NCBI GenBank assembly: GCA_032718475.1
Contig: JAUCBJ010007524.1
Span: 62,001 to 126,000 of the forward strand
Direction of reading: 5' to 3'
Length of the DNA stretch: 64,000 nucleotides
From: Nemertoderma westbladi
Taxonomy: Eukaryota; Animalia; Xenacoelomorpha
In this document: piece after piece, positions 1 through 64,000 of the stretch
Numbering within the stretch: the first letter of the stretch is position 1
Layout of the letters: every line of letters starts with the position of its first letter
Made by a program: the position numbers and the translations under genes
The notes under the pieces: generated by a model
The model's database searches: none
Told to the model about the DNA's origin: nothing
What the model saw: the letters and a program-made list of their open reading frames with translations, nothing else

Positions 1-810
1 TATGGGAAATGCCTCCAAAAGGTTAGAGACCGCGTTTCTTTCAGGTTATGCAATAGCGACGAACAATGCGATTTGCTCTTAGCCAAGCCCAACCACGAAT
101 CGTTTGTTGTCTTTACCCCCAACTTGAGTGGACATACTTTCACTAAAGAGGCTGTTTGCCTAAATCAGGGCGTGTTCATCGGTTGCACTATACTAGATCT
201 ATCTAAGCTACAGATGTACGACCTATTTTACAACAAACTGAAGCCTCTAGAACAAAAACTGGATTGCCAGATTCGCTGTCTAGCCGGTGACACGGATTCT
301 CTAATGCTAAGCGTAACTAATGCACCACAGCTAACCTTTCTACGGGCAATGTTTGAGGGTGGTTTCCTAGATACTTCCAACTACAGTACAACACATCCAC
401 TCTATACCATTAAACACAAAGCGGCTCTCGGCTTCATAAAAGATGAGAGCTGCGGTTTGCAGTATAAACAGTGGGTTTTCCTTAAACCAAAGGTCTACAG
501 CTTTCAATCCTATGATGCCCCAATCAAGAAAACCGCCAAAGGTGTATCTAGATCTGTTGTCGCTAAGCAACTAACACACGAGGATTATGCAGACTGTTTT
601 GAAAACGAGGCAATGCTCTTCCGCTATAACTCTACCTTCACTTCTAGAAAGCATCAAATTTTTACTGGTCATGTCTATAAGAAGGCACTAACGCTCTGGG
701 ATACGAAATCATATTGGAGTAGTAAATATAGCAGCAAACCATACGGGCACTATAGCACTAAGCTTGTTAGACCGGCGAAACGAGTAGTAATCCCCCCTAC
801 TAGGATTTAA
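1..810 (+). CDS. polB: Family B DNA polymerase, Polinton-type (pPolB), C-terminal part; 5' end lies outside the window
   Basis: Frame 1 is open from base 1 (YGKCLQK, end of motif B). It continues through GCTILDLSKLQMY, catalytic GDTDSL, GFIKDE, LKPKVY, KTAKGV and KKALTLWDTK, in the order seen in Polinton polymerases. Confidence 0.92.
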   Translation, partial: YGKCLQKVRDRVSFRLCNSDEQCDLLLAKPNHESFVVFTPNLSGHTFTKEAVCLNQGVFIGCTILDLSKLQMYDLFYNKLKPLEQKLDCQIRCLAGDTDSLMLSVTNAPQLTFLRAMFEGGFLDTSNYSTTHPLYTIKHKAALGFIKDESCGLQYKQWVFLKPKVYSFQSYDAPIKKTAKGVSRSVVAKQLTHEDYADCFENEAMLFRYNSTFTSRKHQIFTGHVYKKALTLWDTKSYWSSKYSSKPYGHYSTKLVRPAKRVVIPPTRI

Positions 811-824
811 ATTTATTTTTCTAG

Positions 825-1340
825 AATAAGAAATTGAACAACAAAATAGAAATAACCAATAAACAGTTTACCGGAAAAAACATTGCCAAATTTGAACTAG
901 AGAAAATTTCACAGCAAATTAGAGGTCGAAGTTGCTTAAAACCAAACATGTTTATCTACAAAGGTGACGATTCAACTTTAATGCTATTTCCCAGCGGCGC
1001 AGTAACAATTGTAGGCCTGTGCAATAATTTAGCTAGTGAATTGCTTTATTTAAAACAAACTATTGGTATGCAATTACAAAATTTGAAACTTAATACCGAA
1101 ACACGAACTATTATTTTTCCAAGTGTTAATTTTAAATTATTAATGAAAAAATGTGGACATCATACAATTAATAATAAAGCAATATTTATTAGCTATACCC
1201 CCGAATTATTTTGCGCGATTAGAATATATATAGGACGTGCATATTTCAGTGTATTTCATAGTAATAAAATCGTTTCCATGTGTCCAGCCGGTGAATTCCC
1301 CGGATCATTATCTATTTTACAAACTATATTATTAAATTAG
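825..1340 (+). CDS. Divergent TATA-binding protein (TBP)-like protein
   Basis: Both TBP core repeats are recognisable: TLMLFPSGAVTIVG (cf. TALIFSSGKMVCTG), ISYTPELFCAI (cf. SSYEPELFPGL) and FSVFHSNKIV (cf. LLIFVSGKVV). Length matches a bare TBP core. There is no ATG at the 5' end; an acceptor-like TTTATTTTTCTAG ends at 824. Confidence 0.8.
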   Translation, partial: NKKLNNKIEITNKQFTGKNIAKFELEKISQQIRGRSCLKPNMFIYKGDDSTLMLFPSGAVTIVGLCNNLASELLYLKQTIGMQLQNLKLNTETRTIIFPSVNFKLLMKKCGHHTINNKAIFISYTPELFCAIRIYIGRAYFSVFHSNKIVSMCPAGEFPGSLSILQTILLN

Positions 1341-1708
1341 TTTATTTACTATGGTATACATGAAAGTTTACTATATTATTTATTTTGTGTTGGTTTTTAT
1401 TTTCCCGTGAGTAGGGTTTGAATCCGTGACCATCCCTGATACCTACTTTTTATAATTGCATTAGTAGGAATCGAACCCTGGTTTAACTTATTTTGTGTTG
1501 GTTTTATAATGGTCGCGAGTAGGGCTTGAACCCGTGACCTTCTGTTTTTCCTATTTTGTGTTTACTTTTTATAATTCCCATAAAACGGGATATGAATAGG
1601 GAACGAACCTGCGAGCATATATTTTTCCTAATTTATGTTTAGTTTAGTCTAGTTATTCTATGTTTACTTTTTATATTTTCATGACTAGGATTCGAACCCT
1701 GGTTTAAC

Positions 1709-1972
1709 TTATTTTGTGTTGGTTTTATAATGGTCGCGAGTAGGGATTGAACCTATGACCTCCTGTTTATTTTCCATTGACTGTTTTATATTTAATATGT
1801 CACGCTCATCTCTCTTTTTCTTTTCATCTTCACTAAAAATATCTTCGGATTTTTTAAATTTTTTTGGTAACGGAGCCATTAGTTTTTCCTTTCTATGTGT
1901 TTCCATATGACGAGATAAATTGTCTTGTCTCATTTCTTTATTACAAACCAAACAAATTTCATGTCTATGCAT
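1709..1972 (-). CDS. Small single C2H2 zinc-finger protein with basic/acidic tail
   Basis: CLVC-x12-HMETH gives exact C-x2-C-x12-H-x3-H spacing, followed by an NLS-like PKKFKK. ATG start; the 3' end runs into a repeat unit. Confidence 0.7.
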   Translation of the reverse strand: MHRHEICLVCNKEMRQDNLSRHMETHRKEKLMAPLPKKFKKSEDIFSEDEKKKRDERDILNIKQSMENKQEVIGSIPTRDHYKTNTK

Positions 1973-2049
1973 TATATAGCAATGTCAATTGATAATATTG
2001 AATTTTCACATTATATTTATGTTAAATTATAAATTTATGCTACAATTAT

Positions 2050-2235
2050 CATCATACAATTAATAATAAAGCAATATTTATTAGCTATACCCTCGAATTA
2101 TTTTGCGCGATTAGAATATATATATAGGATGTGCATATTTCAGTGTATTTCATAGTAATAAAATCGTTTCCATGTGTCCTGCCGGTGAATTCCCCGGATC
2201 ATTATCTATTTTACAAACTGTATTATTAAATTAGT
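2050..2235 (+). pseudogene. Duplicated, frameshifted 3' half of the TBP-like gene
   Basis: Near-identical to about 1159-1340 but with small insertions (ccctcgaa vs ccccgaa; extra TA in atatatatagg). The downstream repeat units are duplicated with it. Confidence 0.9.
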
Positions 2236-2985
2236 TTATTTACTATGGTATACATGAAAGTTTACTATATTATTTATTTTGTGTTGGTTTTTATTTTTCC
2301 GTGAGTAGGGTTTGAATCCGTGACCATCCGTGTTACCTACTTTTTATATTTTCATGACTAGGACTCGAATCCTGGTTTAACTTATTTTGGGTTGGTTTTA
2401 TAATGGACGCGAGTAGGGATTGAACCTATGACCTCCTGTTTATTTTCCATAAAACGGGATACGACTAGGGATCGAACCTGTGACCATCTGTTTATCCTAT
2501 TTTGTGTTTAGTTTAGGTACTCTAGTTATTCTATGTTTACTTTTTATATTTTCATGACTAGGATTCGAATCCTGGTTTAACTTATTTTGTGTTGGATTTA
2601 TAATGGACGCGAGTAGGGATTGAACCTATGACCTCCTGTTTATTTTCCATAAAACGGGATATGACTAGGGATCGAACCTGTGACCATCTGTTTATCCTAT
2701 TTTGTGTTTAGTTTAGGTACTCTAGTTATTCTATGTTTAACTTATTTTGTGTTGGTTTTATATTGGTCGCGGAGTAGGGATTGAACCCGTGACCATCTGT
2801 TTATCCTATTTTGTGTTTAGTTTAGTTACTCTATGTTAAAGTGAATTTTCACATTATATTTATGTTAAATTATAAATTTATGCTACAATTATTATTTATA
2901 TTATAAAAACAGAAATATTCGAGTTATATTGCATTATATATTTTGCATTGAAGTGGAATACTTTAGATGTTGGGGGAATCTGGTT

Positions 2986-5850
2986 TGCGAGGGATATTTG
3001 AATGGTGAGTATAACTATCCTTGAGAGTTAGTGTGACGTTATCTCACTATGGATGGGCTTTACCATTGTACTCGCATCTGCTCTCTCATTGGCTGCTCGA
3101 TGCCTCCGATTAAGGGTCTAACTAAGGCCTTCAAGCTGGTCATTTGCTTAGTTCTCTAATTGGAGGGATGTGAGTTTGGACCCTAGAAGAGCATTATTAT
3201 TTTTCCTAGCTCTTGGTTAACTCTAGCATACACTCTAGCTTTGACTCTCCCGGCTATAGTGATAGTATGCAACCTTGGGAGTTAATGTGAGTAAAGACCA
3301 AGAGATTAGACTTCAGGCTCCCTCTATTGGTTCATTCTTCTTAACTTTATAAAATAACTCAACCCGTATTTAAAGTTTTAAAAATTATGATTTAGTCGAC
3401 TAATTTTCCAAAGTATATTATAAAAACATATAATTTCTTGAATAAATAGACCTAATAGTAATAAATAATGTGGGGGTAAATACATTTATAATTCTAATAT
3501 AATTATTAAGGATAAATAGTCCTAATACTAATATAATTATGTAATAGTAAGCAAAATTTTTATGCGCAACCATCAGAGATTATTTGGATATAAAAGATCA
3601 CACAGCAGGAGGCTAACTTGCTGGGATCGACAAAGGCTTTGTGTGCGGTGTGCCGCTATGTCTTATATCGGGTGCATGAGAGAGCCCCCCTAAGCGTAAC
3701 ATTGCGAACATGGGCTATATTGCTAGAGAGAGAACTACATATAAGACCACATGGAGGTTCATGAGGTGTATGGGAGTGGATGGGTATATGGATGGAGGAG
3801 CCTAGACCATTGAATAATTAATTTAGTGCAGGAAGATGTCGCGCCATTAGTCTGACACCGAGAGGGCACAGAGAAACACCAGAAGATGCCTTAACATCAC
3901 TAACTATGGGCCTACTAGACACTATTAACCGCACACTATAATAAAGGTAAACAAAATCCTTATCGCATTTTCAGCTATAATGAGCGACAGTTCGCGGCAA
4001 ACTATAGAGAGTTTCTAGATTACTAAACGTTTCAAAACTATTAATTTTTATCCTTTGACGGAAAATTATGTTCAATTGTCCCGTTCAACAACATTACACT
4101 GGTACACATTTGATAAAATAAGTTCACAATTGTACAAATCTGGGTTTTCTGGTGGCCTGTACCATAGAAACAATAAAATAAGTATGGATAGCTAAAGTAT
4201 AATTATATGACGGTAATAACTAGGGGATATAGCATATGAATGTTAGCCTTATTTGGGCCCTCAAGCTTATTAGCAATAGAGATATCTCGCTTGCCGGCCG
4301 GCCCTCATGCAAATTTAGCGGCGCCAAGGCTAACGGGGCACCTCGAAGACAGTCTGGCTATAGTAGAGTAGAATGGATATACGAGTCCATAGCTAAAATA
4401 CATCTGCCATGGAGCCTTCGCGTAGCACTATGCTCACCAAATATATTTATAATTCTCTATCCGCGAAATTTTCAGGAATTTTAAATTTTTGCCGTCGCTT
4501 CGCGGAAAAAATAAAAAGTAAACACAAAATAGGATATACAGATTGTCATAGATTCGATTCCCTACCCCCGACCAGGGTCATTATGACCCTCCCCGGTGTT
4601 TGTACAACATTTTATAGCCCGGTAGTATTATGATTAAAGCTACTAAACTAAAACATAAAGTGCAATTATCCTATCTGTTCCAACTCAGTCTCACTACTTT
4701 AGATAATATACTATAATAATAGTGATAGCAGATGCTTTTAATTTCGCGATGAAATAATGTCAGCAAACGAAATATAGCGAATACATCATAGATAGAGTTT
4801 TAAATTAGTATGGTTTTATCTGTAATTTTTTATTTTGAACGCAATAATAAAAAGGTTATTATGTGACTCATGAAAATAAATCTTAAATAAAATACAAATG
4901 TTCCACCTTGGTGAAGTGGATGCAATGTATTTACACCTCAAGTGTGGAATCAGGTTTGTAGCCAGGACTTTTAAGTTGGGTAGACCTGGGAATATCGGAG
5001 TAGGCAGGCGGAAATGTTAATTTGGATAAAGTTTACAATAGATTTAACTGATTAATTGTTTACAGCGGATAGAAAGCAAACCTACAGTAGGATGTACATG
5101 GAGTCCACCATTAATTCATCATTTGTATACAAAGCATAATTTAAACAATGGACGAAATCGCGTAGGTCCGCGTCTACCAGTCTACTAACGCATTAACTGT
5201 CTCCTTGAATGGCTTACTATCAATCATACTACTAAAAAATTCATTGGAGAGTGGGATTGAACTCGTTGTATAGTAAAAAAGTAAAACGAGTGAAATACTA
5301 TATGTATAATTACAGGATGGCTGGGTGCAACCTTCGTTCACCTACAACCTCCCCCCAGGTGCAATCTTTGTTCGCGAAATTTTCAGGAATTTTAAATTTT
5401 GCAGTCGCATGGAGTGATAACCCTTAGGTGAAAGCTAAATTTGCTCTACTTTAATCAAATGGGGCATTAAAGCTGAGTGTATTTTCCTCTACATCCTCCC
5501 TCGATCTTACGCAAATCTGGGTAAAAGGCAGTTGAAGGGCTATCATTCCCAACATATGCGGTCCCCCCTTTAATGTTTCATTGTTCTATTCATAGTCGCC
5601 TTTAAGAATTTCTCGGGAAAATAAGGACGATCACTTTCAACCCATGCGGCCCTCCCTTTCATGATTTCATTGAACTATCCATAGTATGAACAATCAAACC
5701 AAAGCCTTTGAATATAGGACTGAATATCCTCGCGGCTTATCAGCGGCGCCATGGCTAACGGCTTAATATCAATAGTGAAGCATCTAAAAGACAGAGTGTC
5801 TATGATAGGGCAGAACAGTATACTTACAGCTTAGAGGTGGGCGCGCTGAA
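2986..5850 (+). ncRNA. Candidate cluster of structured non-coding RNA domains
   Basis: No credible ORF. Several long imperfect stems with G-U pairs on +: 3001-3008/3060-3067, 3103-3112/3157-3166, 3210-3218/3296-3304, 4241-4250/4326-4335, 4901-4906/4944-4949, 4975-4989/5177-5189 and 5740-5750/5840-5849. Confidence 0.45.
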
Positions 5851-6527
5851 AACTTTGCTCGCCATCAATACATACAAAGCATCGCCTGAAGGATAGAGTA
5901 ATAGGGTGGATATTTTCATTTTGGTGAATATAATTTATAGCATTAATCACGAAAATCGCTAAATAATATATTTTAATTAAAATCAGCTCTGATAAACAAC
6001 TTGCATATCGAGTTTGTAAAGAATTCATAGGGATTGGCTGTTTATTTAGGGGTTAACATTCAAATTGATTACGAAGAAGCAGTAGGGGTCATTAATGGTA
6101 TGCTGAGACTCACTTATTTCATGGCTCGCTCTCATAGTATAGATTAACTAGTAGAGAAAAATGAAAAATAACCGGTTAAACATCTTATATTTTTTAAACA
6201 TTATGGGGAAACAAGAATAAATAATTTACCGACAACATCAATATTAAATAATATAACAACAACGGATAAATAATTTACCAACAACATTAATAATAAATAA
6301 TATAAGAACATCAACAATAACAAAAGATATAGTCAGAACAGTTTTCAATAAATAGAGACTGTTTATATTAATTTATATTTATTATATTTAATTTATATTA
6401 ATTTAGTTGCTGCTCTCCGAGAATAAGGTTTGGTTTAACCCTTTTAGGCTCCGATACTATTAATGGTTGAGATAATTTTCTCTTTAATAGATTGTTGAGA
6501 TAACCTTTTCTTGAGAGGTGAAATAGA

Positions 6528-8114
6528 TTAAGGTGTGTTTGCTGTGGGAGAAAGATGCCTTCTCTGAGAGAACGTTTTAGTAATTCGAAAAGGCGCGCGA
6601 TGGTAAGTAAAGTCGTTGGACAGGGTGATAGTGTTGGTATTTTTCGTATTGGTGAATATAATTTCTGTTGGTTTGTTCTCGATATGAATGTAAGGACTGA
6701 GATAGTAGTGAGAGTTGGGTGGGTTGGTTATATTTATCGTGAGAAAATCGCTGCCCCTAATATTGAGACCGTTGGTGAACTGAAAAGTGGTATTCTCTTC
6801 GTCTTTCATTAAAATGGGCCAGATACCGACATATTTTTCGGATTTGAGCTTATAGATAAAGGCTGCGATACTGCTATTTATGAGATAGCGCTGGTGATTG
6901 GGGATCGTAATCTGCTTTGGTTTGAAAGCAAATTGTATAGCCATAGCCTTGAATCTGATTAGAGCCTCGCGCGCTTGAATCGTGTTAGCTATAGTAAAGG
7001 ATTCGTTAAATTTTCTCTCGGTTATCTGTAAATCAATTTCTGAATCACTGATACAACTTTGTATCGATATTCGCTCGGAAATGTTGTCTTTGTAGACGTT
7101 AAGTTCATCGTAGCAGACACATTCACTATCCTCGATGGTTGAATCGAACCATTTCAATTCGCCGACCTCGGTTGGTGTAAGAAGAATCATGCCCCTAGAA
7201 GAAACAATAGCCTTTCCTTCGTCAACCTCGTAGCCATTGGTGATCGCTAAATTGCGCTCGTTCCGAATATTTGTAACAAACCCAAAAGTGCAATAGTCAA
7301 AAGCAACCCAATTCCCCGGTTTTAGGACAAGGTGAGTAGTAGGATTAATAAAAGGGCGACAGATGTTTACATATTGTTGAAATAAATTGGCGCAGGCGAC
7401 GGAAAATGTGATCCATGAACTGTTTACATTGTCTTCCAGCTTTATTAACTCAAGTGGTTTCACTGGGTTAATACTTCCATGGGTGCCAACTCTATAATTG
7501 AATCCAAAGTAATAGGAGACTTTATTGGCGTAAATGCATGTAAGCTCATTCAATTTCTCGCCGAAAGCGAGAACATCCTTGTCGAAAAGTTTAAAGAAAC
7601 GAGTCTCCTCTTCCTCGGTCGGAGTCGACGAGTTCCAGATGAGAAGAAGAATCGAGTTTGCGATACTATGAAAATCAAATAAGCGATCATCGGAGAAGAA
7701 GGAGGTTACGAGAGTGGTTAAACCCAGTAGACGATTTGCCACATCTTGGTTGATGTTCTCTCGAATAAAATCGACTATACTAGTTGGAATCGTAAACGTT
7801 TCGGGCGAAGTAGTTAGATTGAACGTTATTTTGTTGTCCCTTTTTATAAGTTTGAAACCGTGGTTGGAGGAATGAAGTTTATTATCGTCGAGGGTTTGAT
7901 ATTGTCCATCGTGAAGTTCGTAGCAGGCGCGGAAAATAAAGTGCGCGTAGTTTGCCGGAATCGGGATGGGTTGGTTTAAGGTTGAATTTATCGTTAACAG
8001 GAAGAGTTTGTTCGCCGGATCGAAATATAGACCAAACGAGTTGTCTTGTAGCATAAACTGATTTTCGTTGCAAACCAGATCGTTGCTTGAATAGCTGATT
8101 TCTGAATGTGCCAT
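6528..8114 (-). CDS. 528-aa uncharacterised element protein with two putative PC4/Sub1-like ssDNA-binding segments
   Basis: Long intact ORF with ATG and an upstream promoter. FGFVTNIRNERNLAITNGYEVDEGKAIVSSRGMILLTPTEVGELK and FIYKLKSEKYVGIWPILMKDEENTTFQFTNGLNIRGSDF follow the pattern of PC4 [44 protein letters not shown]. The ORF is secure; the domain call is tentative. Confidence 0.65.
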   Translation of the reverse strand: MAHSEISYSSNDLVCNENQFMLQDNSFGLYFDPANKLFLLTINSTLNQPIPIPANYAHFIFRACYELHDGQYQTLDDNKLHSSNHGFKLIKRDNKITFNLTTSPETFTIPTSIVDFIRENINQDVANRLLGLTTLVTSFFSDDRLFDFHSIANSILLLIWNSSTPTEEEETRFFKLFDKDVLAFGEKLNELTCIYANKVSYYFGFNYRVGTHGSINPVKPLELIKLEDNVNSSWITFSVACANLFQQYVNICRPFINPTTHLVLKPGNWVAFDYCTFGFVTNIRNERNLAITNGYEVDEGKAIVSSRGMILLTPTEVGELKWFDSTIEDSECVCYDELNVYKDNISERISIQSCISDSEIDLQITERKFNESFTIANTIQAREALIRFKAMAIQFAFKPKQITIPNHQRYLINSSIAAFIYKLKSEKYVGIWPILMKDEENTTFQFTNGLNIRGSDFLTINITNPPNSHYYLSPYIHIENKPTEIIFTNTKNTNTITLSNDFTYHRAPFRITKTFSQRRHLSPTANTP

Positions 8115-8224
8115 CGTGATTGTGTACCGGTAACTCGTTTAGGAAATAAAAATAAATAAATACTTTTACGAAAATAATTAAAACTTTTCAGGAAAACAAA
8201 GAGACAATGATTGGGAATGTGGTG

Positions 8225-8405
8225 AACGGGGGCTATTATAGAGGGGGCTAGAATGGGTTAGCCAATCAGGGAACAGGAGGGAGAAAAGACTGTATAATTA
8301 AACCAATCAGAGAGCAGCTTTGATGACGTCACATCAGGCGAGATAATGATTGCCCAATGTTATTCAATGGTAGATTCAATTCAAGTGGCGCCATTGAATA
8401 ACGAA
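8225..8405 (-). promoter_or_regulatory. Pol II promoter of the 528-aa gene
   Basis: TATAATAG on - near 8233-8240, two CCAATCAG boxes (about 8262 and 8303), a CRE palindrome TGACGTCA (8324-8331) and an inverted repeat GTTATTCAATGG/CCATTGAATAAC (about 8358-8402). Confidence 0.6.
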
Positions 8406-8677
8406 GACAAAGGGGCCGCGAGAGGAAAGATTATAAAGTTAACGATAAGGGATCTATAAACCAAAGAGCTAAATATAGACATTATGTCATAGTGATCTCA
8501 TTGGTAATATAAAAACTAATTATTCTAAAAATAAAAATCAATGTATAAAGTAAAAGTAATATATACAATTAATTAATTTAAAATAAAGTACAAATGAATA
8601 AATAAAGTAAAATAAAGTACAATTAATTAATTAAAATTAAATATAAATAAATAAGTATTAATGAATAAAAGAGCTGC

Positions 8678-9013
8678 GGTGTCACTTATGACACCCTCTT
8701 GAGCCGGCTCTGCGACAGTTAGACCTAACTGATGACCCATTGTGTGTCAGGGCGCTAATCAGTCTGATTAATTAGGATAATCAATTAAACCCTAATTAGG
8801 AGTCATATGACACCTGTTAGGGTTTAATTGTACTAATTAATTGATGACACCTGTCAATTAGGGTCTAATTAGCCTAATTGGGAGGTGTCACCCAGACAGT
8901 CTGGCGCCAATGACACCCAATGACACCCATAGGGTGATAATAGGGTGTCATATGACACCCAATGGGTGTCAGTTAGGTCTAACTGTCGCAGAGCCGCCCA
9001 AGACCCTACTACT
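8678..9013. repeat. Terminal (TIR-like) region with internal fold-back and TGACACC iterons
   Basis: Perfect 28-bp inverted repeat 8705-8732/8969-8996, about ten TGACACC/GGTGTCA motifs, and an end of CTACTACT. Confidence 0.85.
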
Positions 9014-9800: not shown

Positions 9801-11173
9801 ACTTATTACAAATATATGTATTTCATAACTACTGTGGCGTCTCACTTTTCTCGAGGTATTTTATTTACCGGTACCGAGCGCCAGCGAAGTTAATAAATAC
9901 GAGTCAAGAGTAGGGTGTATATTGAATAAAAATGTTCTCACTCAAAGTTAAATAATTTGATGTTCTCGAATATTTATTCCGTAACATAACTACATAAAAC
10001 ACAATATAATATTGGATACTGAATTCCGTTTTGGAGTACGCCTTGCTGACACTAGGCCTACAGTACACTCAATTTACAATAGCTGAATAAATTGAGTGCG
10101 TGCATGTATTTTACTCAAATTACGTGCAAACCTTTCCTTCTTCGATGATCTTTCAAAACATGTAATAAAATTTATTTTAAATCCTCCAATCATGCAGTAT
10201 TTCCATATTTTCGCCGGGAAAAAGTAAAATCAATGCATTCTTAAATTACTCATTTGTCTCCCGAATTTATGGTATACTGTATTTGCACGAAAAAGTATAA
10301 CAGTTTAAGAATACTGTAAAATTGTTTGCTTTCTTTAAAAGATATTAATATTAATTTTTTTTTCACAAATTTCAAAATTAATTGCAACACATTGAGGAGC
10401 TACTTAGATACAGTAGATGCCTACAGTAGAATAGGGCAATACGGTGAAAACTTGTCAATTTGTGTAAAACCCAACCACTCGGACAGAATAGTGGATTTCC
10501 GATAATGATTAAAAAAGCGGTGTTTTCGGATTATTTTTATTTGTTATCGAATAATAATAGTCCTTTGGACATATTTGTATACTTTTAATAATTTTCCAAA
10601 TTGTCGTTGCATAACTGATTAAATCAGTATAAATCAAGGACTACTATAGTGTAGTGTAGTATTGTAGTAGTCCTTGGTATAAACATAAACATATAGCATA
10701 CAGTATGACATGATCGTAAAAAACGTGCAGCACTTTGCGCATTTAGCGGTGCAATAGCCATACAGTAGAATCTACTGAGCTAGAGAACCTTGCTTGCGTA
10801 AAGGTTAAATCCGTTTCATTGAATTCACATATTTCCGGAGGTCGTGGGTAATATATAACTTTTACTTTGCTTTATAGAAAATCTACGAGTGATTTGATTT
10901 GTCTTAATTTTTAACATTATTTATAAGAACCTACCGATACAGAGATGTACGGTACTTTCCTAGGACTAGCCTAGTTTTAGGTTTGTAAAATACATGAGAC
11001 TTGAAAGTGAAAATAAAACTACAGTACTACAGTAGGACTAGCCTACCGTAATACAGTAATACTGTACTGTAGTACAGCAGTACAGTAGTAACTGTATTGT
11101 ACAGTACGTACAACAGAACTACTGCATACCGGTACCAGCCTGCCAGCATACTGCACTGCAACACTGCCTGACC

Positions 11174-12670
11174 ATGGCAGGTAGTAACAAGGAATATTCT
11201 ATAGTTGAGTTCTTACCGGAGCGGGGTGGTAGTCGTTGTGGCTACTGTAAGTCGGCAGACACTAACCACTCCCAGGGTATGTGGGCCCATAGACTCAACA
11301 CATCCGACTACCAAAGTCTCATAGACAGGGGCTGGCGACGCAGTGGCAAGTATTGCTACAAACCCTCGATGGAGACAACTTGCTGCCCCTTGTACACAAT
11401 CAGATGCGGTTCAGCCGAGTTCAAACCGTCCAAAAGTCAGAGGAAGTTAGCGAAACGAGTAGCTAACTATTTACTATACGATAATCGCCGTGGTGGTAAA
11501 CAGGCGGGCGAACATAATTATAACACAACAGAATATAGGCCTAAACCGGATAATATTGTCGTAAATGATGTTGTTTTACCGGAAGTTGTACCGACGGATA
11601 GTAGACTACAAACCGGAATTAAACCTGCGTCAGTAAATCTCCAAACCCATCAGCAAGAAGTGCCCTCTAGTTCTAAAGAATCCGCTCCCAGTAAGCCCTG
11701 TACAGAACGTGTTAGAACAGATGATAAGCCGTTCTCCCAAAGGAAAAGAAAAGAACGTAGACGAGAGAAATGTTTCCAAAAACTAAAGGTTCGTTCGGAA
11801 ACAACCGGAGTTCCTTTCGATCAACTTTTATTAGAGAAACAGAGAAAACAAAAAGAGAAAAACCAACCGAAATCCCTTCAACATTTACTCGATTATAAAT
11901 CCCAACTAAAAGTCGGACAAACCCCGAAACACCAGCTGGAACTTAAACTCGTCCGAAGCAGCCCAAAATCTGCGGAATTCCAATCCAGTTTATCTGCTTC
12001 GCACAAACTTCTGCAGAGATACCAGAAGAGCATTCACCATGAACCGGAAAGTAAGTGGGGGATGTCCCATTACCGAAACTTCCTTATTGAGTCCCCTCTC
12101 ATCGCCGTAGAAACAGACTCCGGCCCAGGACTTGGGTCTTTCCATCACCAATACTGGCTGGACGGGAACCTGATAGCCGTGGGAGTTGTGGACCTCCTTC
12201 CCAACAGTTTATCCAGCGTCTATCTCTTCTACGATCCGGACTTCTGGTTTCTATCCCTCGGAACTTACGCAGCCCTGCAGGAGATCCTATTAAGCCAACG
12301 TTTATTGGCTAGCAACCCCGCGATCCGCTGGTACTACATGGGTTTCTACATACACTCGTGTCCTAAAATGCGATACAAGGGCTGTTTCTCTCCCAGTTAC
12401 CTCCTCTGTCCGGAAGCCTACACCTGGCATCCCATTGACCAGTGTTTGCCTCGCCTCGCTATTTCCCGTTACTCCCGGTTCAACCCGACTCAGACTCCCG
12501 TAGAATCTCCCGACGTTAGCGAGCTACTGGTGCTCCACAACCGACAGGCTATGCCCTACTCCTTGTATCGGGCCTTAAACGCTTTTGTATTCGATGAAGA
12601 AGAAGTGGTTTTCTATGCACAACTAATCGGGATATCTTTGATCAAAGAGTTGTTATTGTACCGCGTTTAA
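11174..12670 (+). CDS. ATE1: Arginyl-tRNA--protein transferase 1, single exon
   Basis: N-terminal YSIVEF..CGYCKS..GMWAH..YQSLIDRGWRRSGKYCYKP..TCCPLYTIRC and C-terminal GSFHHQYWLDG.LIAVGVVDLLP..LSSVYLFYDPD..YYMGFYIHSCPKMRYK. Confidence 0.97.
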   Translation: MAGSNKEYSIVEFLPERGGSRCGYCKSADTNHSQGMWAHRLNTSDYQSLIDRGWRRSGKYCYKPSMETTCCPLYTIRCGSAEFKPSKSQRKLAKRVANYLLYDNRRGGKQAGEHNYNTTEYRPKPDNIVVNDVVLPEVVPTDSRLQTGIKPASVNLQTHQQEVPSSSKESAPSKPCTERVRTDDKPFSQRKRKERRREKCFQKLKVRSETTGVPFDQLLLEKQRKQKEKNQPKSLQHLLDYKSQLKVGQTPKHQLELKLVRSSPKSAEFQSSLSASHKLLQRYQKSIHHEPESKWGMSHYRNFLIESPLIAVETDSGPGLGSFHHQYWLDGNLIAVGVVDLLPNSLSSVYLFYDPDFWFLSLGTYAALQEILLSQRLLASNPAIRWYYMGFYIHSCPKMRYKGCFSPSYLLCPEAYTWHPIDQCLPRLAISRYSRFNPTQTPVESPDVSELLVLHNRQAMPYSLYRALNAFVFDEEEVVFYAQLIGISLIKELLLYRV

Positions 12671-17041: not shown

Positions 17042-19003
17042 TTACGTTATGGAGTCCCTAGATGTTTGAAGGATTAGGGAGGTGGTCGTGGGAAGAGAAT
17101 CTTGCCTTCCACAGTTTCCGGAGAGTCCTCCATTCCCTTCCGATAAACACAAACGACCGACTGGGTGATTGAGTCGCTGCATCCTGAATACAATTCCAGG
17201 TTTCCTCTTCGTCCTGGAATAGTGACGATAGAAACATCGCTCAAAGTATATGACGGCGTCACAAAGCCGATTCCAGAAGCTATAGTGGTCCGTCGCTCTC
17301 TGCAGGAGAGGTGAGAGTCCCTGCGAGACGTCTGATGTTCCAGAGCTCCAATCGCTCTCTCTGATCTTCATGAAGGATCCACTCGCGGAGGGGAGGCCCA
17401 GATCCACGGCGTCGTCCCTGGCAACATGTAATACCGACAGATCTATCCCGGGTTCAAATAACTCCGCTCCACCCGCCCGGGTTTTAGGTTTAACTTTCTC
17501 CGCTCCCTTGGCTGGTCTAATCTCAGTCGGAGTAAGATGGGGAGGCCATTCATCCTCCTTACTCAGGAAGTCGGGTTCACCTAACCGGTCTGTAGTATCT
17601 GTCAGTTCTTGAGGAGTTACTCCTCTGGAAGCGATGTCCGTTGGATTAAACTTCTTGGGACAATATCTCCATTGATCTAAATTGGAGCTAATATCGTCAT
17701 TATCTGAGGAGTATGGTGTTCCCTCAGTTGGGTCGTCTCCCTCACTAGTATCATCTTCCCATTCACTCATCTGGCAGACGCGATCTTGAAGCAGTCTTTC
17801 CCTGAGCGTTCTACCGGAAGGTCCAGTAAGGTACCAACCTACTCTAGTTCTTACCGCATAGGTCTGTAGTGGCTGCGGTTGAGCAGGTCGTTTCTCTAAT
17901 GTCTCCAGCGCCTCATGCGCGTTTTGGCCGATGAGTATTTGCACTCCAGGATAATCAGTCTGGAATCGAGGTATGTTAAGATGTTGGATGCTCTCATCCT
18001 CGTCCCAATTATAAAGGTCTGCTTGAGTAGTAGCGAAGTTCTTTATAGCCACCATTTTCACTGACCTGATACTGTATTCTCCTAGTTTATCCTGTGGAGT
18101 GGACAACTCACCTATATAATAGTCGGCAGCTACAGTAGAATTCCAAACCTGCATGATCCCTGACATGTTTAGCTTGGTTCGGAACTTGGGTTGTCCAGCA
18201 AAGATGACTTCGGCTAGTTCCCTATCGATGAATGTTCCTGTGCTACCGGAGTCCAGGAGGGCGTTCACTATATAGCTCTTCTGAGGTCCGTGGACCCGTA
18301 ACTGGACTACAGGAAATTCTCGGATTCCTATGTTGGAAGTTGGCGCTTTCCAAGATGGTTGTTGATCGGAAGTAGTTAAGGTAAGGTCGCTGTCTGTGTC
18401 TTTCTCATACACGAGTGCTCGATACACTGCGGTGGTGTTTATTAGGTAACAGGATTCGTTTTGGTCGGAGAACTCGTCCGTATAGAATCCTTCCATCTCA
18501 GATTGATCAGTGTCGTTCACATCACTGAATTGGACATGTATTTCGGACTCACTTACCTGACTCGGGCTGTTTCGTTCGAATTCCGTGTGCAACAAGATAT
18601 GATGTTTTGCGCCGCACTTTGCACACCTTGCGTCGGAGTTACAGGTTCGCCGTTGGTGTCCTCGTCTGAGGCAATTATAACACAACCGCTTATCCCACAT
18701 GACTTCACGTCTATCCTCGAGTGATTTCCTCAGGAATTTATCACACGCATTTAAACGGTGGGGCCCGTCGCACAGCACACATTTGGGCTTGATGTTACTT
18801 ACTTTAACATGTGCTGTGTGGTGCACACTTGTTCTTTCCTCGGGCTTTCTCACCTGAATTCTTTTAGGAGACGTAGGAGGGGTTTTTTGTACCGGTTCCC
18901 TTCTGTCATTGGGTCGAGACTTGGATTTACTTACCTGATCTTTAGGCATTTTATTGACATAAGATATGTCAGTGTCTTTCCCGCTGTCCTCTCCTTGAGA
19001 AGT
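17042..19003 (-). CDS. BEL/Pao Gag zinc knuckles, aspartic protease and end of RNase H; RT and integrase missing
   Basis: CVLCDGPH..C, CYNCLRRGH....C and CAKCGAKHHILLH; protease ALLDSGS; AVRTRVGWYLTG is followed shortly by QWRYCPKKFNPTDIASRG. Confidence 0.88.
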   Translation of the reverse strand, partial: TSQGEDSGKDTDISYVNKMPKDQVSKSKSRPNDRREPVQKTPPTSPKRIQVRKPEERTSVHHTAHVKVSNIKPKCVLCDGPHRLNACDKFLRKSLEDRREVMWDKRLCYNCLRRGHQRRTCNSDARCAKCGAKHHILLHTEFERNSPSQVSESEIHVQFSDVNDTDQSEMEGFYTDEFSDQNESCYLINTTAVYRALVYEKDTDSDLTLTTSDQQPSWKAPTSNIGIREFPVVQLRVHGPQKSYIVNALLDSGSTGTFIDRELAEVIFAGQPKFRTKLNMSGIMQVWNSTVAADYYIGELSTPQDKLGEYSIRSVKMVAIKNFATTQADLYNWDEDESIQHLNIPRFQTDYPGVQILIGQNAHEALETLEKRPAQPQPLQTYAVRTRVGWYLTGPSGRTLRERLLQDRVCQMSEWEDDTSEGDDPTEGTPYSSDNDDISSNLDQWRYCPKKFNPTDIASRGVTPQELTDTTDRLGEPDFLSKEDEWPPHLTPTEIRPAKGAEKVKPKTRAGGAELFEPGIDLSVLHVARDDAVDLGLPSASGSFMKIRESDWSSGTSDVSQGLSPLLQRATDHYSFWNRLCDAVIYFERCFYRHYSRTKRKPGIVFRMQRLNHPVGRLCLSEGNGGLSGNCGRQDSLPTTTSLILQTSRDSIT

Positions 19004-61200: not shown

Positions 61201-64000
61201 ATGTGATTTCTAGAAAAGAAGCACTAGATATTGTCTTGAACGCATCTAGTTCATCTCATACGATGAAAATCCTGATTTTATGAAGAATCATTTAGAAACT
61301 ATACTTTGCAGCATGCATTACGCTATATGGTAGCTCTGCATTGAGATGCTATGATGGCTTAACAATAAATTTTGTGCCACCATCATGTAATGTACAATAG
61401 GCTTGCTATAATGCAGCATGCATTACGAAAAATGTATGCCAGCTTGTCAATAAAATTGAACCTCCACAACTATCCCCCATGACATTCACGAGATTATCCG
61501 CATCTTGAAAACAGTCTCCGTTGCTATAGTTAAGGGTCTGTAAAAAAATAATGAAATTTAAGATGGGATTTTTCAGAATGACTACTCAACCAACTGCTTC
61601 AAAAAATCCAACTATGGTTTAGATCGGAATTTGTGGGCAAAAATATATACTCGCTCAGTCTATTATGGGGGATGGTGTATATGATATATATTATATGGAT
61701 TTTATATGATACAATTTCAAGGCGCTATCTGACTGATTGATATTGCTTTTATTCTTAAATTGTCACTTTTTCGCTCGAATATACCCCAAAATCGGAAGAA
61801 AAAGTTTCACTTTTTTCTCTAGGGAAAAAAGTAATCAATAGGAATGCATTGATTTTACTTTTTTTCCCGGCGAAAAAAGTAAAGTAAAATATTTTTGGTG
61901 GAATATTTTAAATGTATTATTTATTATGTATTAAATGTATATCACATGTATTGAAAGAGCATCGACGTAGAAAAGGTTTGAAAGTAATTTGTGCGAAATC
62001 CATTCACCCACTCAAAAGTTATTGCAACTTTAGTGCCTGCGCGGCGTACACCAAAACGGACCTCAATATCCTGTATTGGTTTATGTAGTTTAAGCAGCTC
62101 TCTAGTTACATAATAAATATTCGAGAACACTAAATTAGTTTAGCATTGAGTAAGGCAACATCGAGAGTTGAAGAATGGCCTACTATATACTATTGTTATT
62201 ATTATTATGTTTTATTATGTTGTTGTATTATTGTATATGTGTTGTTGTTATATTATTATGTTTTATTATGTTGTTGTATTATTGTATATGTGTTGTTGTT
62301 ATATTATTATTATGTTACTATTATTATACTATACTATATTGTATATATTAGGCCATGGTTGAAGAATAAAATAATTTGAATCGCAGTAACTATGGAAGAA
62401 ATATAGTAAAATACTACAATTCAATTTATTTTGTAACACTACTGTACTATAGTATATCGCTATGTTTTATTACAGAATTTAGCAACAAAAAAGTACCAAT
62501 TTAAGAATAAAATTACGTATTACATGGGAAAAAACGTGGAACAATTTTTTTTCAATTTTCTCTCGACCCTTTATTAACCTCGCTGATGCTGCACTCGGTA
62601 AATAAAATGCCTCGAGAATAATGAGAAAAAGTTCTACTTTTTTCCCATGTAATAAATAATTATTATTGTATATTGGTTATGGACAGTATAATATGGTATC
62701 AAAGACTTCAGTTCCATCACTACAAAACGTATGTCATGTGACTTATATTCCAGAATAAAAGTCATTAAATAGCAAAAAAGTAGGCTAGAGTTCCGTTTGT
62801 ATCAAGGTGTACTAAATAACCTATAGTTATTTAGTACACCTTGGTTTGTATTAACATTTTCAGTAAAAGTTTTTGATGCATTGCAGGACAAATTTTTATA
62901 CTAATAATAATGTATATGAATGAGTACTTGATCTTGGCAGACCTAGCTCATGAATTTTATGGTAGCTAGTATTTTTTTTAGCTTGCTAGTATTTTTTGAA
63001 AATTAAAAAATAATAAAAATGATAAAAAAAATTAATAATGTTTTTGAGTGTTTTTATTAGATATTGGTAAATGTTCTAGAACCATAGTATATTTTTATAT
63101 ATAGTGTATATAGTGTATGTTTTTATTATATTGGATCTATTGTTTTTTTTACTAGCTAGTAGGCCGCCTATTTTATGAAAATAAAAAAAAATAATTAAAA
63201 TTAATATTATTTTTAAGTGTCTTTTAGATATTGGTGAATGTTCTAAAAACGTAGTAGATATTTTTTTTAATGTACTTAGTGTTACGAAATATGGCGCTGT
63301 GTACCAATATTAGCCGTTATACAGTATAATCATTTAGATAAGCCATAATGACGCGCAATTATATTTAGATAAGGAAACTAAAATGCCCATATTTGTGAAT
63401 TTTATCCATTTTGTACAGTATGTAGTCCTACCTATGTAATTTTGTAATTAAATATAAACAAATAGTTCTACAGTAGCAAGTTTCCTATAAAATCCTTTGA
63501 TGTAAGCTTGCTGTTATTAGTATCAATAGGATTAACTGTATATTTGCTTTAATTTCTATTATATTTGCGCTAAATTAGATTTTATGTACCGTGCTTTAAG
63601 TACCGCTAAAATAAGCAACGCCAATATTACCATATATATGGTGGTAATTTGTGATTCTGAGGGGGAATAGGTTCACAATCCGGCTTCCTTATTGGCCTAG
63701 CTGCTTCCAGGTTGGTCTAATGGTATCGCAGATTGGGGAACCAATCAGAGGATTATTGCATCATCCTCGATGAATCACATATAAATTGGCTGTATTTCCG
63801 GTATGTGCGATCCATAATCTCATTCTCACTGTGTTTCTTAATCAATCTCGATGGTTACTGCAAATTAGAATCCGAACTATGATTTCTACCCTTTTTATTA
63901 ATGGTTCTATGTGATTAAGATGCGATAATCCCACGGGATTTTCTTTAGACTGTCAGACTGTTTGTGATTGCATGCGCCGTTACGGTAGCTATTCATTCTA

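What the first reader, a model, noticed from the sequence alone, without database searches (positions are those of the whole stretch)
1..9013. Polinton-like element carrying its own basal-transcription toolkit next to Pol III-like sites and structured RNA
Seen: within 9 kb between PolB and a Polinton-type terminus lie a TBP-like gene, a C2H2 finger gene, a protein with PC4-like segments, about 14 tRNA-B-box-like repeats and 3 kb of hairpin-rich non-coding DNA. Known: TBP and PC4 are general transcription factors, B-boxes bind TFIIIC, and adenoviruses (relatives of Polintons) express Pol III VA RNAs. Inference: this may be a module by which the element redirects host Pol II/III transcription and produces its own small RNAs. 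TBP is not among the core Polinton genes I know.
Basis: partly seen in the sequence, partly recalled or inferred. Interest (0 to 1): 0.85.

Follow-up and report, generated by a model that had tools for sequence, protein, structure and literature searches.

The report
Polinton arm with its own TBP
The end of a young virus-like Polinton element in a likely animal genome carries a divergent TATA-binding-protein gene that likely switches on the element's own genes through host RNA polymerase II, while the tRNA-promoter-like repeats beside it lack the other parts of an RNA gene and the supposed hairpin-rich DNA folds no better than ordinary DNA.

Summary
Positions 1-9013 are the right arm of a Polinton: a protein-primed PolB tail, then accessory DNA, then an (ACT)2 end. 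The TBP-like frame (825-1340) is real: Pfam, Atlas, profile and fold searches agree, and it keeps 3 of TBP's 4 DNA-bending phenylalanines. It has no ATG at its 5' end but opens exactly behind a splice-acceptor-like site. Four of 81 PolB-related metagenome loci also carry TBP downstream of PolB. In them a variant box, YATAAAC, sits 30-65 nt before 15 of 32 genes (about 1 expected), never before TBP itself. This points to a herpesvirus-like promoter-specificity factor; for this element that is inferred, because its virion genes lie outside the window. The 14 B-box repeats (plus one inverted copy) are real, but have no A-box, mostly no terminator and no intact T-stem, so they are more likely TFIIIC-binding or passive tRNA-derived DNA than RNA genes. 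The 3-kb non-coding block is not more structured than background; only the terminus folds. PC4 likeness of the 528-aa protein got no tool support and stays open. The parts are not shown to form one Pol II/III module.

The parts
1..810 (+). C-terminal 269 aa of a protein-primed family B DNA polymerase (open at the window edge)
   Evidence: 45 relatives at E<=1e-10, 26-44% identity, many with PF03175; tree
812..824 (+). Pyrimidine tract ending in TAG, like a 3' splice acceptor; the TBP frame opens at the next base
   Evidence: sequence; similar tracts precede the TBP start in L017, L018, L021; splicing is inferred
825..1340 (+). Divergent two-repeat TBP-like frame, 171 codons stop to stop; first ATG only at 948
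1380..1770 (-). Array 1: six 52-89 nt units, each with a B-box-like core
1709..1972 (-). 87-aa ORF with one C2H2-like finger and a basic tract; its last codons run into the repeat array
   Evidence: below Pfam cut-off; contigs of other copies leave the window sequence at 1766
2050..2895 (+). Second copy of an internal duplication: non-coding copy of the TBP 3' half, array 2 (eight B-box units, 2270-2830), no finger ORF
2900..6200 (.). Non-coding block, not more structured than background; scattered Pol II-type motifs; parts occur in other sequence contexts
4515..4574 (+). Lone inverted, degenerate copy of the B-box unit
6528..8114 (-). Intact 528-aa ORF without detectable relatives; PC4-like by eye at about residues 256-335 and 400-460, unconfirmed
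8233..8331 (-). Ordinary Pol II-type promoter motifs before the 528-aa ORF: TATA-like (8240-8233), two CCAAT boxes, one CRE
   Evidence: motif consensus recalled; function inferred
8690..9013 (.). Candidate right terminal inverted repeat: inner inverted arms 8705-8732/8969-8996, ten GACACC motifs, (ACT)2 end
   Evidence: (mean z -3.5); end motif as in PMC8097293
9014..9019 (+). Candidate 6-bp target-site duplication AATACA; the left copy is outside the window
   Evidence: sequence only; untested

Best explanation
This is the right arm of a young, multi-copy Polinton that carries a divergent TBP gene, whose product likely acts as a promoter-specificity factor that steers host RNA polymerase II to the element's virion and integration genes through a non-standard TATA box. 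Shown: the TBP fold, its linkage to PolB in another study's contigs, TBP genes in four related Polintons, and a variant box (YATAAAC) before many of their genes but never before TBP. Inferred: that TBP is made early from a spliced transcript (acceptor-like site at the frame's first base), that it binds such a box, and that this element has its own box on the missing left arm. The B-box array is likely DNA-level sequence derived from a tRNA 3' half and amplified in tandem; it may bind host TFIIIC as a barrier between two convergent genes (about 45%) or be passive (about 40%), and is probably not a set of small-RNA genes (about 15%). The 528-aa gene has an ordinary Pol II promoter and is likely a separate accessory gene, possibly a single-stranded-DNA-binding protein.
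For: TBP identity: Pfam TBP E 7.8e-4; all 30 Atlas hits in TBP-bearing clusters, best 0.95; the only hit among 1.84 billion representatives is a TBP-domain protein; profile A3 finds 35 PDB sequences, all TBP or TBP-containing, best E 7.6e-21; all 37 listed Foldseek rows at E<=0.001 are TBP chains. Three of four intercalating Phe kept; first stirrup shortened. Linkage: run X4 contigs span 620-848 and 1069-1500 without gaps. Relatives: 4 of 81 loci, 4 of the 24 with >=2 kb after PolB, carry TBP at Pfam E 2e-15 to 2e-18 inside a Polinton cassette. Box: 15 of 32 listed starts against 0.96 for random starts, maximum 5 in 2000 draws; 15 of 37 genes against 3 of 186 in the other PolB clade; 39 of 43 sites on the gene strand. 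Repeats: no exact A-box in 14 of 14, T4 within 69 nt in 3 of 14, T-stem 1-4 of 5 pairs in all 15. Precedent: herpesviral TBP mimic with TATTWAA late box (PMC12529657); TFIIIC-only B-box sites act as barriers (PMC12409998).
Against: The box was found in relatives, not in this element: their TBPs are only 21-23% identical to the window's, the window's PolB sits on a long branch and is not their sister (quick tree), and none of the 4 YATAAAC sites in the arm precedes an arm gene. The motif was chosen on the same four loci that test it; three of the four are close kin; the control clade differs in lineage and host. The box also precedes PolB in L018 and 5 of 32 genes in same-clade loci where no TBP was seen (mostly short contigs), so it is not strictly late-only or TBP-only. 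The window's TBP scores below Pfam's cut-off, its Atlas recognition (1862) is under the 2300 mark, the model is moderate (pLDDT 63) and was guided by the relatives. The frame lacks a 5' ATG, and the 3 listed differences between this copy and the deepest contigs in it are all amino-acid changing, so this copy may be decaying. Gene order differs: TBP lies next to the virion cassette in relatives, in the terminal arm here.
Confidence: 0.55

Rival explanations
1. First reader's module: TBP, PC4 and the B-box array work together, and the arm makes its own Pol III small RNAs like adenovirus VA RNAs.
For: B-box enrichment is far above chance; 9 of 14 units match GWTCRANNC exactly on one strand; 8 of 14 have a TATAAA 30-41 nt upstream; TBP-bearing L011 carries a tRNA-Cys and a tRNA-like gene just after PolB.
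Against: No A-box beyond background (5 of 14 at one mismatch, 28.6% expected); terminators in 3 of 14; T-stems broken; no Rfam match; no excess folding in the repeats (mean z -0.10) or the 3-kb block (+0.11); the units are copies of each other, 8 of them in a duplication; 3 of 4 TBP-bearing relatives have no tRNA-like gene and none has the array; no PC4 hit.
Confidence: 0.12
2. The TBP acts as a decoy or general helper: it binds host initiation factors or ordinary AT-rich promoters (for example when host TBP is scarce in germ cells) and has no private box in this family.
For: The arm's own genes show ordinary Pol II motifs; the window's TBP has drifted far from the box-bearing relatives and has lost one Phe, one stirrup glutamate and the proline after the third Phe.
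Against: In relatives the variant box is strong, spaced like a TATA box and absent before TBP, which a decoy does not explain; three DNA-bending Phe are kept.
Confidence: 0.2
3. In this family the TBP gene is a relic: once functional, now without a start, with the neighbouring repeats and non-coding DNA as accumulated debris of a non-autonomous or decaying arm.
For: No ATG until codon 42 of the frame; partial duplication of the gene's 3' half; 3 kb without genes; segments that continue into other sequence in other contigs.
Against: The frame stays open for 171 codons at 30% GC, contigs of another study show no gaps in it, it starts exactly at an acceptor-like site, and relatives with an ATG have similar acceptor-like tracts.
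Confidence: 0.13

Closest known systems
Polintons/Mavericks, Alpha-PolB adintoviruses (Starrett et al. 2021, PMC8502044; Barreat and Katzourakis 2021, PMC8097293)
   Same: PF03175-type protein-primed PolB; (ACT)2 right end; accessory genes near the terminus; relatives have PLA2-like, ATPase, integrase and capsid genes.
   Different: TBP is not among the eight vertebrate core genes named in PMC8097293. In Starrett et al. it appears only as a label in the legend of the figure on MELD viruses and related elements, in the section on non-animal datasets; no promoter box or function is given in the passages read. Left end, integrase and capsid genes of this element are outside the window.
Beta/gamma-herpesvirus TBP mimic (KSHV ORF24) with the TATTWAA late box (PMC12529657)
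   Same: A virus without its own RNA polymerase encodes a TBP-fold protein; a variant TATA box marks downstream genes (shown here for relatives).
   Different: ORF24 is a large multidomain protein in a six-member complex and lacks the TFIIB-binding acidic residues; the Polinton protein is a bare ~170-aa TBP core that keeps one (window) or both (relatives) stirrup glutamates; the box differs (YATAAAC); no partner was found.
Cellular TBP (Pfam PF00352) and giant-virus TBP homologues
   Same: Two-repeat saddle fold, YxPELF stirrup motif, three of four Phe.
   Different: 13-20% identity to solved TBPs; first stirrup shortened and its Phe not kept; no N-terminal extension.
Extra-TFIIIC (ETC) sites (PMC12409998)
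   Same: B-box without the rest of a type II promoter.
   Different: Here a tandem array inside a mobile element; TFIIIC binding is untested.
Adenovirus VA RNA genes (recalled)
   Same: B-box-like motif in a PolB-encoding linear DNA virus relative.
   Different: No A-box, no terminator in most units, no stable fold.
PC4/Sub1 (PF02229) and the adintovirus gene labelled MOSUB (PMC8502044 Suppl. Fig. S2)
   Same: MOSUB is drawn as the last gene before the right ITR in one map, the place the 528-aa ORF holds here; the reading of MOSUB as PC4-like comes from earlier scan notes, not from the paper text I saw.
   Different: No sequence or fold evidence links the 528-aa protein to PC4.

Membership tests
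Polinton/Maverick | Protein-primed PolB | tested here: met
Polinton/Maverick | (AGT)2//(ACT)2 or (AG)3//(CT)3 end motif | tested here: met
   right end ACTACT at 9008-9013; motif in PMC8097293
Polinton/Maverick | Matching left TIR and 6-bp target-site duplication | not testable with these tools
   left end outside the window; no genome held; terminus pattern absent from viral contigs
Polinton/Maverick | Integrase, ATPase, protease, major and minor capsid genes | not testable with these tools
   not in the window; integrase, ATPase and a weak capsid match are present in relatives L011/L017
TBP (PF00352) | Two-repeat saddle fold | tested here: met
TBP (PF00352) | Pfam curated cut-off (22.9 bits) | tested here: not met
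   19.7 bits for the window frame; the four relatives pass at 57-66 bits
TBP (PF00352) | Four DNA-intercalating phenylalanines | tested here: not met
   three kept (F55, F129, F144 of the frame); the first aligns to Asn in a shortened stirrup
TBP (PF00352) | Acidic TFIIB-binding stirrup | tested here: inconclusive
   YTPELF keeps one of two glutamates; relatives keep YEPELF
TBP (PF00352) | Complete, expressed gene | tested here: inconclusive
   open frame without 5' ATG; acceptor-like site; no transcript data
Herpesvirus-type viral TBP system | Variant TATA box before virion genes, absent before the TBP gene | tested here: inconclusive
   met in four relatives; this element's virion genes are outside the window
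Herpesvirus-type viral TBP system | Binding of the viral TBP to the box and late kinetics | not testable with these tools
   needs experiment
Type II Pol III gene (tRNA/VA RNA) | B-box | tested here: met
Type II Pol III gene (tRNA/VA RNA) | A-box upstream of the B-box | tested here: not met
   0 of 14 exact; one-mismatch rate at background
Type II Pol III gene (tRNA/VA RNA) | Oligo-T terminator | tested here: not met
   3 of 14 units within 69 nt
Type II Pol III gene (tRNA/VA RNA) | Stable RNA fold | tested here: not met
ETC (TFIIIC-only) site | B-box without A-box | tested here: met
ETC (TFIIIC-only) site | TFIIIC bound without TFIIIB and Pol III | not testable with these tools
   needs ChIP or binding assay
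PC4/Sub1 (PF02229) | Profile match or PC4 fold | tested here: inconclusive
   no profile hit; the single-sequence model is unusable (pLDDT 31)

The most novel reading that the evidence does not exclude
A Polinton lineage uses one small viral TBP on two fronts: a variant TATA box for its Pol II virion genes, and, together with host TFIIIC, TATA-plus-B-box units that need no A-box for Pol III small RNAs. The array's 52-55 nt period would place a TATA about 85 nt before the next unit's B-box, close to tRNA-gene geometry, and the tRNA pair in TBP-bearing L011 would be the same strategy with intact genes.
Probability: 0.12. Interest if true: 0.85.

Novelty: new variant of a known kind. Interest (0 to 1): 0.52.

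Why it matters
How Polintons, which have no RNA polymerase, time their capsid genes is an open question. A self-encoded TBP with a matching variant TATA box would be a one-protein early-to-late switch, parallel to the six-protein system of beta/gamma-herpesviruses, and is directly testable by a binding assay. I found no paper describing it for Polintons (searches; TBP appears only as a figure label in Starrett et al.). The idea already recurs in many unchecked notes of this scan, so this window adds a very divergent member and a different box (YATAAAC) in independent loci, not a first sighting. The Pol III and structured-RNA parts of the finding largely fall away.

Tried and rejected
No whole genome is held, so the left arm and other copies could not be read. 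Word-index protein searches found nothing for the 528-aa or TBP frames. Scans of viral contigs with PolB, TBP (three queries), the 528-aa protein and a terminus pattern gave no usable locus beyond L001; prokaryote genomes gave none for TBP; the first metagenome scan gave none. No RNA holder was listed. Reads were laid on 1-6200 only, all as contigs, so depth gives no copy number and the 528-aa gene and the terminus have no read support. PC4: no hit in Pfam (whole and four segments), PHROGs, NCBIfam, PDB sequences or the Atlas; single-sequence model pLDDT 31, its fold search best Z 3.8, uninformative; six putative internal repeats show no mutual similarity (15 of 15 pairs p>0.1); a two-copy complex job on residues 400-475 gave no answer; an attempt to fetch PC4 family members through genome handles found no held record. 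25 short frames in 2869-6052 gave one chance-level Pfam hit. ARAGORN found no tRNA in the window; Rfam's two hits (E 1.6, 4.2) are chance. The TAAGA-type box named in earlier scan notes was not the enriched motif in my four loci. The higher conservation of the B-box core among seven unit types (79% against 38-67% in flanks) is partly circular, as units were picked by that core. The PolB tree is the quick version; the careful search did not finish. PMC11662393 was irrelevant ('PC4' is a cluster label).
Full report
What the region is. The window opens in the last 269 codons of a DNA polymerase; 45 longer relatives score E<=1e-10 at 26-44% identity, many carrying PF03175, the protein-primed family. 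The arm ends at 9013 in CCCTACTACT, the (ACT)2 right-end motif reported for Mavericks (PMC8097293, passages). The last 320 bases hold 28-nt perfect inner inverted arms, ten GACACC motifs and the only strongly folding windows of the arm (mean z -3.5, 4 of 6 windows at z<=-3). Beyond 9013 lie a single-exon arginyl-tRNA transferase gene and retroelement ORFs, so the host is a eukaryote, likely an animal (inference). No genome is held, so the left TIR, the TSD and the virion genes are untested. Contigs of four DNA runs from three studies of one organism cover 30 of 30 bins of 1-6200 in three runs and 22 of 30 in the fourth; the longest deep contigs differ from the window by about 1% (4 in 563, 2 in 225), with many more divergent contigs beside them: a young, multi-copy family.

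The TBP-like gene is real. The frame 825-1340 hits Pfam TBP at E 7.8e-4, below the curated cut-off. All 30 Atlas neighbours are TBP-bearing clusters, best score 0.95, though the recognition value (1862) is under the tool's 2300 mark. A full HMMER scan of 1.84 billion representatives returns one protein (E 5.4e-4), which has a clear TBP domain (E 8.8e-12). A profile of the window frame and five relatives retrieves 35 PDB sequences, all TBP or TBP-containing (one named only by a locus tag), best E 7.6e-21. The alignment-guided model (pLDDT 63, pTM 0.46) matches TBP chains in all 37 listed rows at E<=0.001 and giant-virus TBP-like proteins in the viral library. Three of four intercalating phenylalanines are kept; the first aligns to Asn in a shortened stirrup; one stirrup glutamate and the proline after the third Phe are replaced. 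From recalled TBP structure, the altered lobe reads the 3' half of the TATA box, which fits a changed box. The first ATG is at 948 and would cut off the first strand and helix; the frame opens at the base after TTTATTTTTCTAG, an acceptor-like site, and similar tracts precede the TBP start in L017, L018 and L021. A spliced 5' exon, or a spliced leader that brings a start codon (PMC9851317, start of abstract only), is the likely source of the start; a decayed copy is the alternative. Contigs of run X4 span 620-848 and 1069-1500 without gaps, linking PolB to TBP and TBP to the first two repeats in another study.

Relatives. A PolB profile gave 80 metagenome loci (the best 80 of 213 confirmed, from a scan cut at 42 of 64 parts) and one viral locus. 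Four of these 81 carry TBP downstream of PolB on the same strand, at Pfam E 2e-15 to 2e-18. Of the 24 loci with at least 2 kb after PolB, these are the four best-scoring; 20 show none. In L011 and L017 the order is PolB, PLA2-like, small ORF, TBP, ATPase, small ORF, C2H2, integrase with chromodomain, then capsid-module ORFs (the penton and hexon labels rest on position and one weak Pfam hit, E 0.007). In a quick tree of 114 PolB tails the window and the four share a 54-row clade (support 97), but the window is a long branch and not their sister, and L023 in that clade shows no TBP in 3.6 kb. Their TBPs are 21-23% identical to the window's. None of the 81 loci has DNA similarity to the arm beyond PolB, a relative of the 528-aa protein or a B-box array.

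A variant promoter box. Earlier scan notes (AI, unchecked) suggested looking for a non-standard TATA box. In my four loci the top enriched hexamer before gene starts was ATAAAC (17 of 32 against 1.75 expected), not the TAAGA-type box of those notes. YATAAAC lies 30-65 nt before 15 of 32 listed starts (PLA2-like, ATPase, integrase, penton, hexon and others); random starts give 0.96, at most 5 in 2000 draws; only 3 of the 15 overlap an upstream stop codon. With automatic gene calls it precedes 15 of 37 genes in TBP loci, 3 of 186 in the other PolB clade and 5 of 32 in same-clade loci where no TBP was seen; 39 of 43 sites are on the gene strand. It never precedes TBP (0 of 4) but does precede PolB in L018. 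Limits: the motif was picked on the same loci, three loci are close kin, and the control is another lineage. In the window's arm none of four such sites precedes an arm gene; the 528-aa gene has ordinary CRE, CCAAT and TATA-like motifs (consensus recalled). The parallel is KSHV ORF24 with its TATTWAA late box (PMC12529657, passages).

The B-box repeats. Fourteen units in two arrays and one inverted copy give 18 of the window's 19 matches, against 3.67 expected; 9 of 14 fit GWTCRANNC exactly on the minus strand. They read like a tRNA variable loop plus T-arm set in A-rich spacers. But no unit has an exact A-box, 5 of 14 have one at one mismatch (background 28.6%), 3 of 14 have a T4 run within 69 nt, and the T-stem forms only 1-4 of 5 pairs in all 15. 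ARAGORN and Rfam find nothing, and folding is at background (mean z -0.10). Eight units belong to a second copy of a duplication that also repeats the TBP 3' half without an open frame, so the count overstates independent sites. Type II promoters need A- and B-boxes, and B-box-only sites bind TFIIIC alone and act as barriers (PMC12409998, passages). The array sits between the convergent TBP and finger genes, so a TFIIIC landing array is plausible; passive amplification is nearly as likely. For a Pol III link: 8 of 14 units have TATAAA 30-41 nt upstream, and L011 carries a tRNA-Cys (Rfam E 5.6e-11) and a divergent tRNA-like gene without an anticodon arm right after PolB; the other three TBP loci do not.

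The 3-kb block, the finger and the 528-aa gene. 2900-6200 folds no better than shuffles (mean z +0.11; 7 of 65 windows at z<=-2, against 3 of 28, 4 of 32 and 6 of 20 in controls), has no gene-like frames, varies among copies by small indels, and has segments that continue into other sequence elsewhere. The finger ORF has one C2H2-like motif below cut-off; 4 of 7 listed variants in it are silent, and other contigs leave the window sequence at 1766, where it meets the array. The 528-aa ORF is intact but has no detected relative or family; two segments resemble PC4 by eye (recalled pattern), and Starrett's Suppl. Fig. S2 shows a gene labelled MOSUB just inside a right ITR, which earlier notes read as PC4-like. 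That remains a lead.

Literature. TBP with Polinton or Maverick appears in Starrett et al. only as an abbreviation in figure legends for MELD viruses and related elements (bioRxiv 10.1101/697771, passages and section 8; PMC8502044, passages, section 3.2 and a supplement search). The figures were not visible and the supplement file is cut, so I cannot say which element carries it. Searches listed no paper on a Polinton TBP with a promoter box, on PC4 in Polintons or on Pol III units in them (listings only for the other papers); subscription journals are mostly not covered. PMC10748475 (passages) gave general Polinton features.

Verdict. A real, divergent Polinton TBP, belonging to a wider TBP-bearing group in which a variant promoter box is evident. 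The proposed combined Pol II/III, PC4 and structured-RNA module is not borne out. New variant of a known kind; interest 0.52.

Noticed in passing
L011:10000-10227: A TBP-bearing Polinton carries a divergent pair just after PolB: tRNA-Cys(GCA) on the plus strand and a tRNA-like gene lacking the anticodon arm on the minus strand, each followed by a T-run.
   Followed up: partly
L011:10568-10750: Weak match to an HDV-like ribozyme family (drz-agam-2-2, E 0.022, below gathering score) in the same non-coding stretch.
   Followed up: no
window 25132-47150: Arrays of a 146-bp tandem repeat hold 45 same-strand copies of a motif that fits the recalled CTCF consensus; the period is close to nucleosome core length.
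   Followed up: no
window 11174-12670: Intronless arginyl-tRNA-protein transferase (ATE1) gene 2 kb from the Polinton end; possibly a retrocopy or a compact host gene.
   Followed up: no
L011:13037-13489 and 17674-18141: Two similar-looking ~150-aa ORFs without Pfam match; by eye they could be paralogous nucleic-acid-binding folds.
   Followed up: no
window 4454-4498 and 5365-5408: 45-bp direct repeat (89%) with an E2F-like TTTCGCG site in the non-coding block.
   Followed up: no
window 9932-10243 and 61839-62161: A diverged (68%) dispersed repeat in the host flank, with several strongly folding windows at 10520-10920; likely a small non-autonomous transposon.
   Followed up: no
window 1380-2830: The A-rich spacers of the B-box units are rich in RTAAACA, a forkhead-like motif (recalled) that also resembles the relatives' YATAAAC box.
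   Followed up: partly
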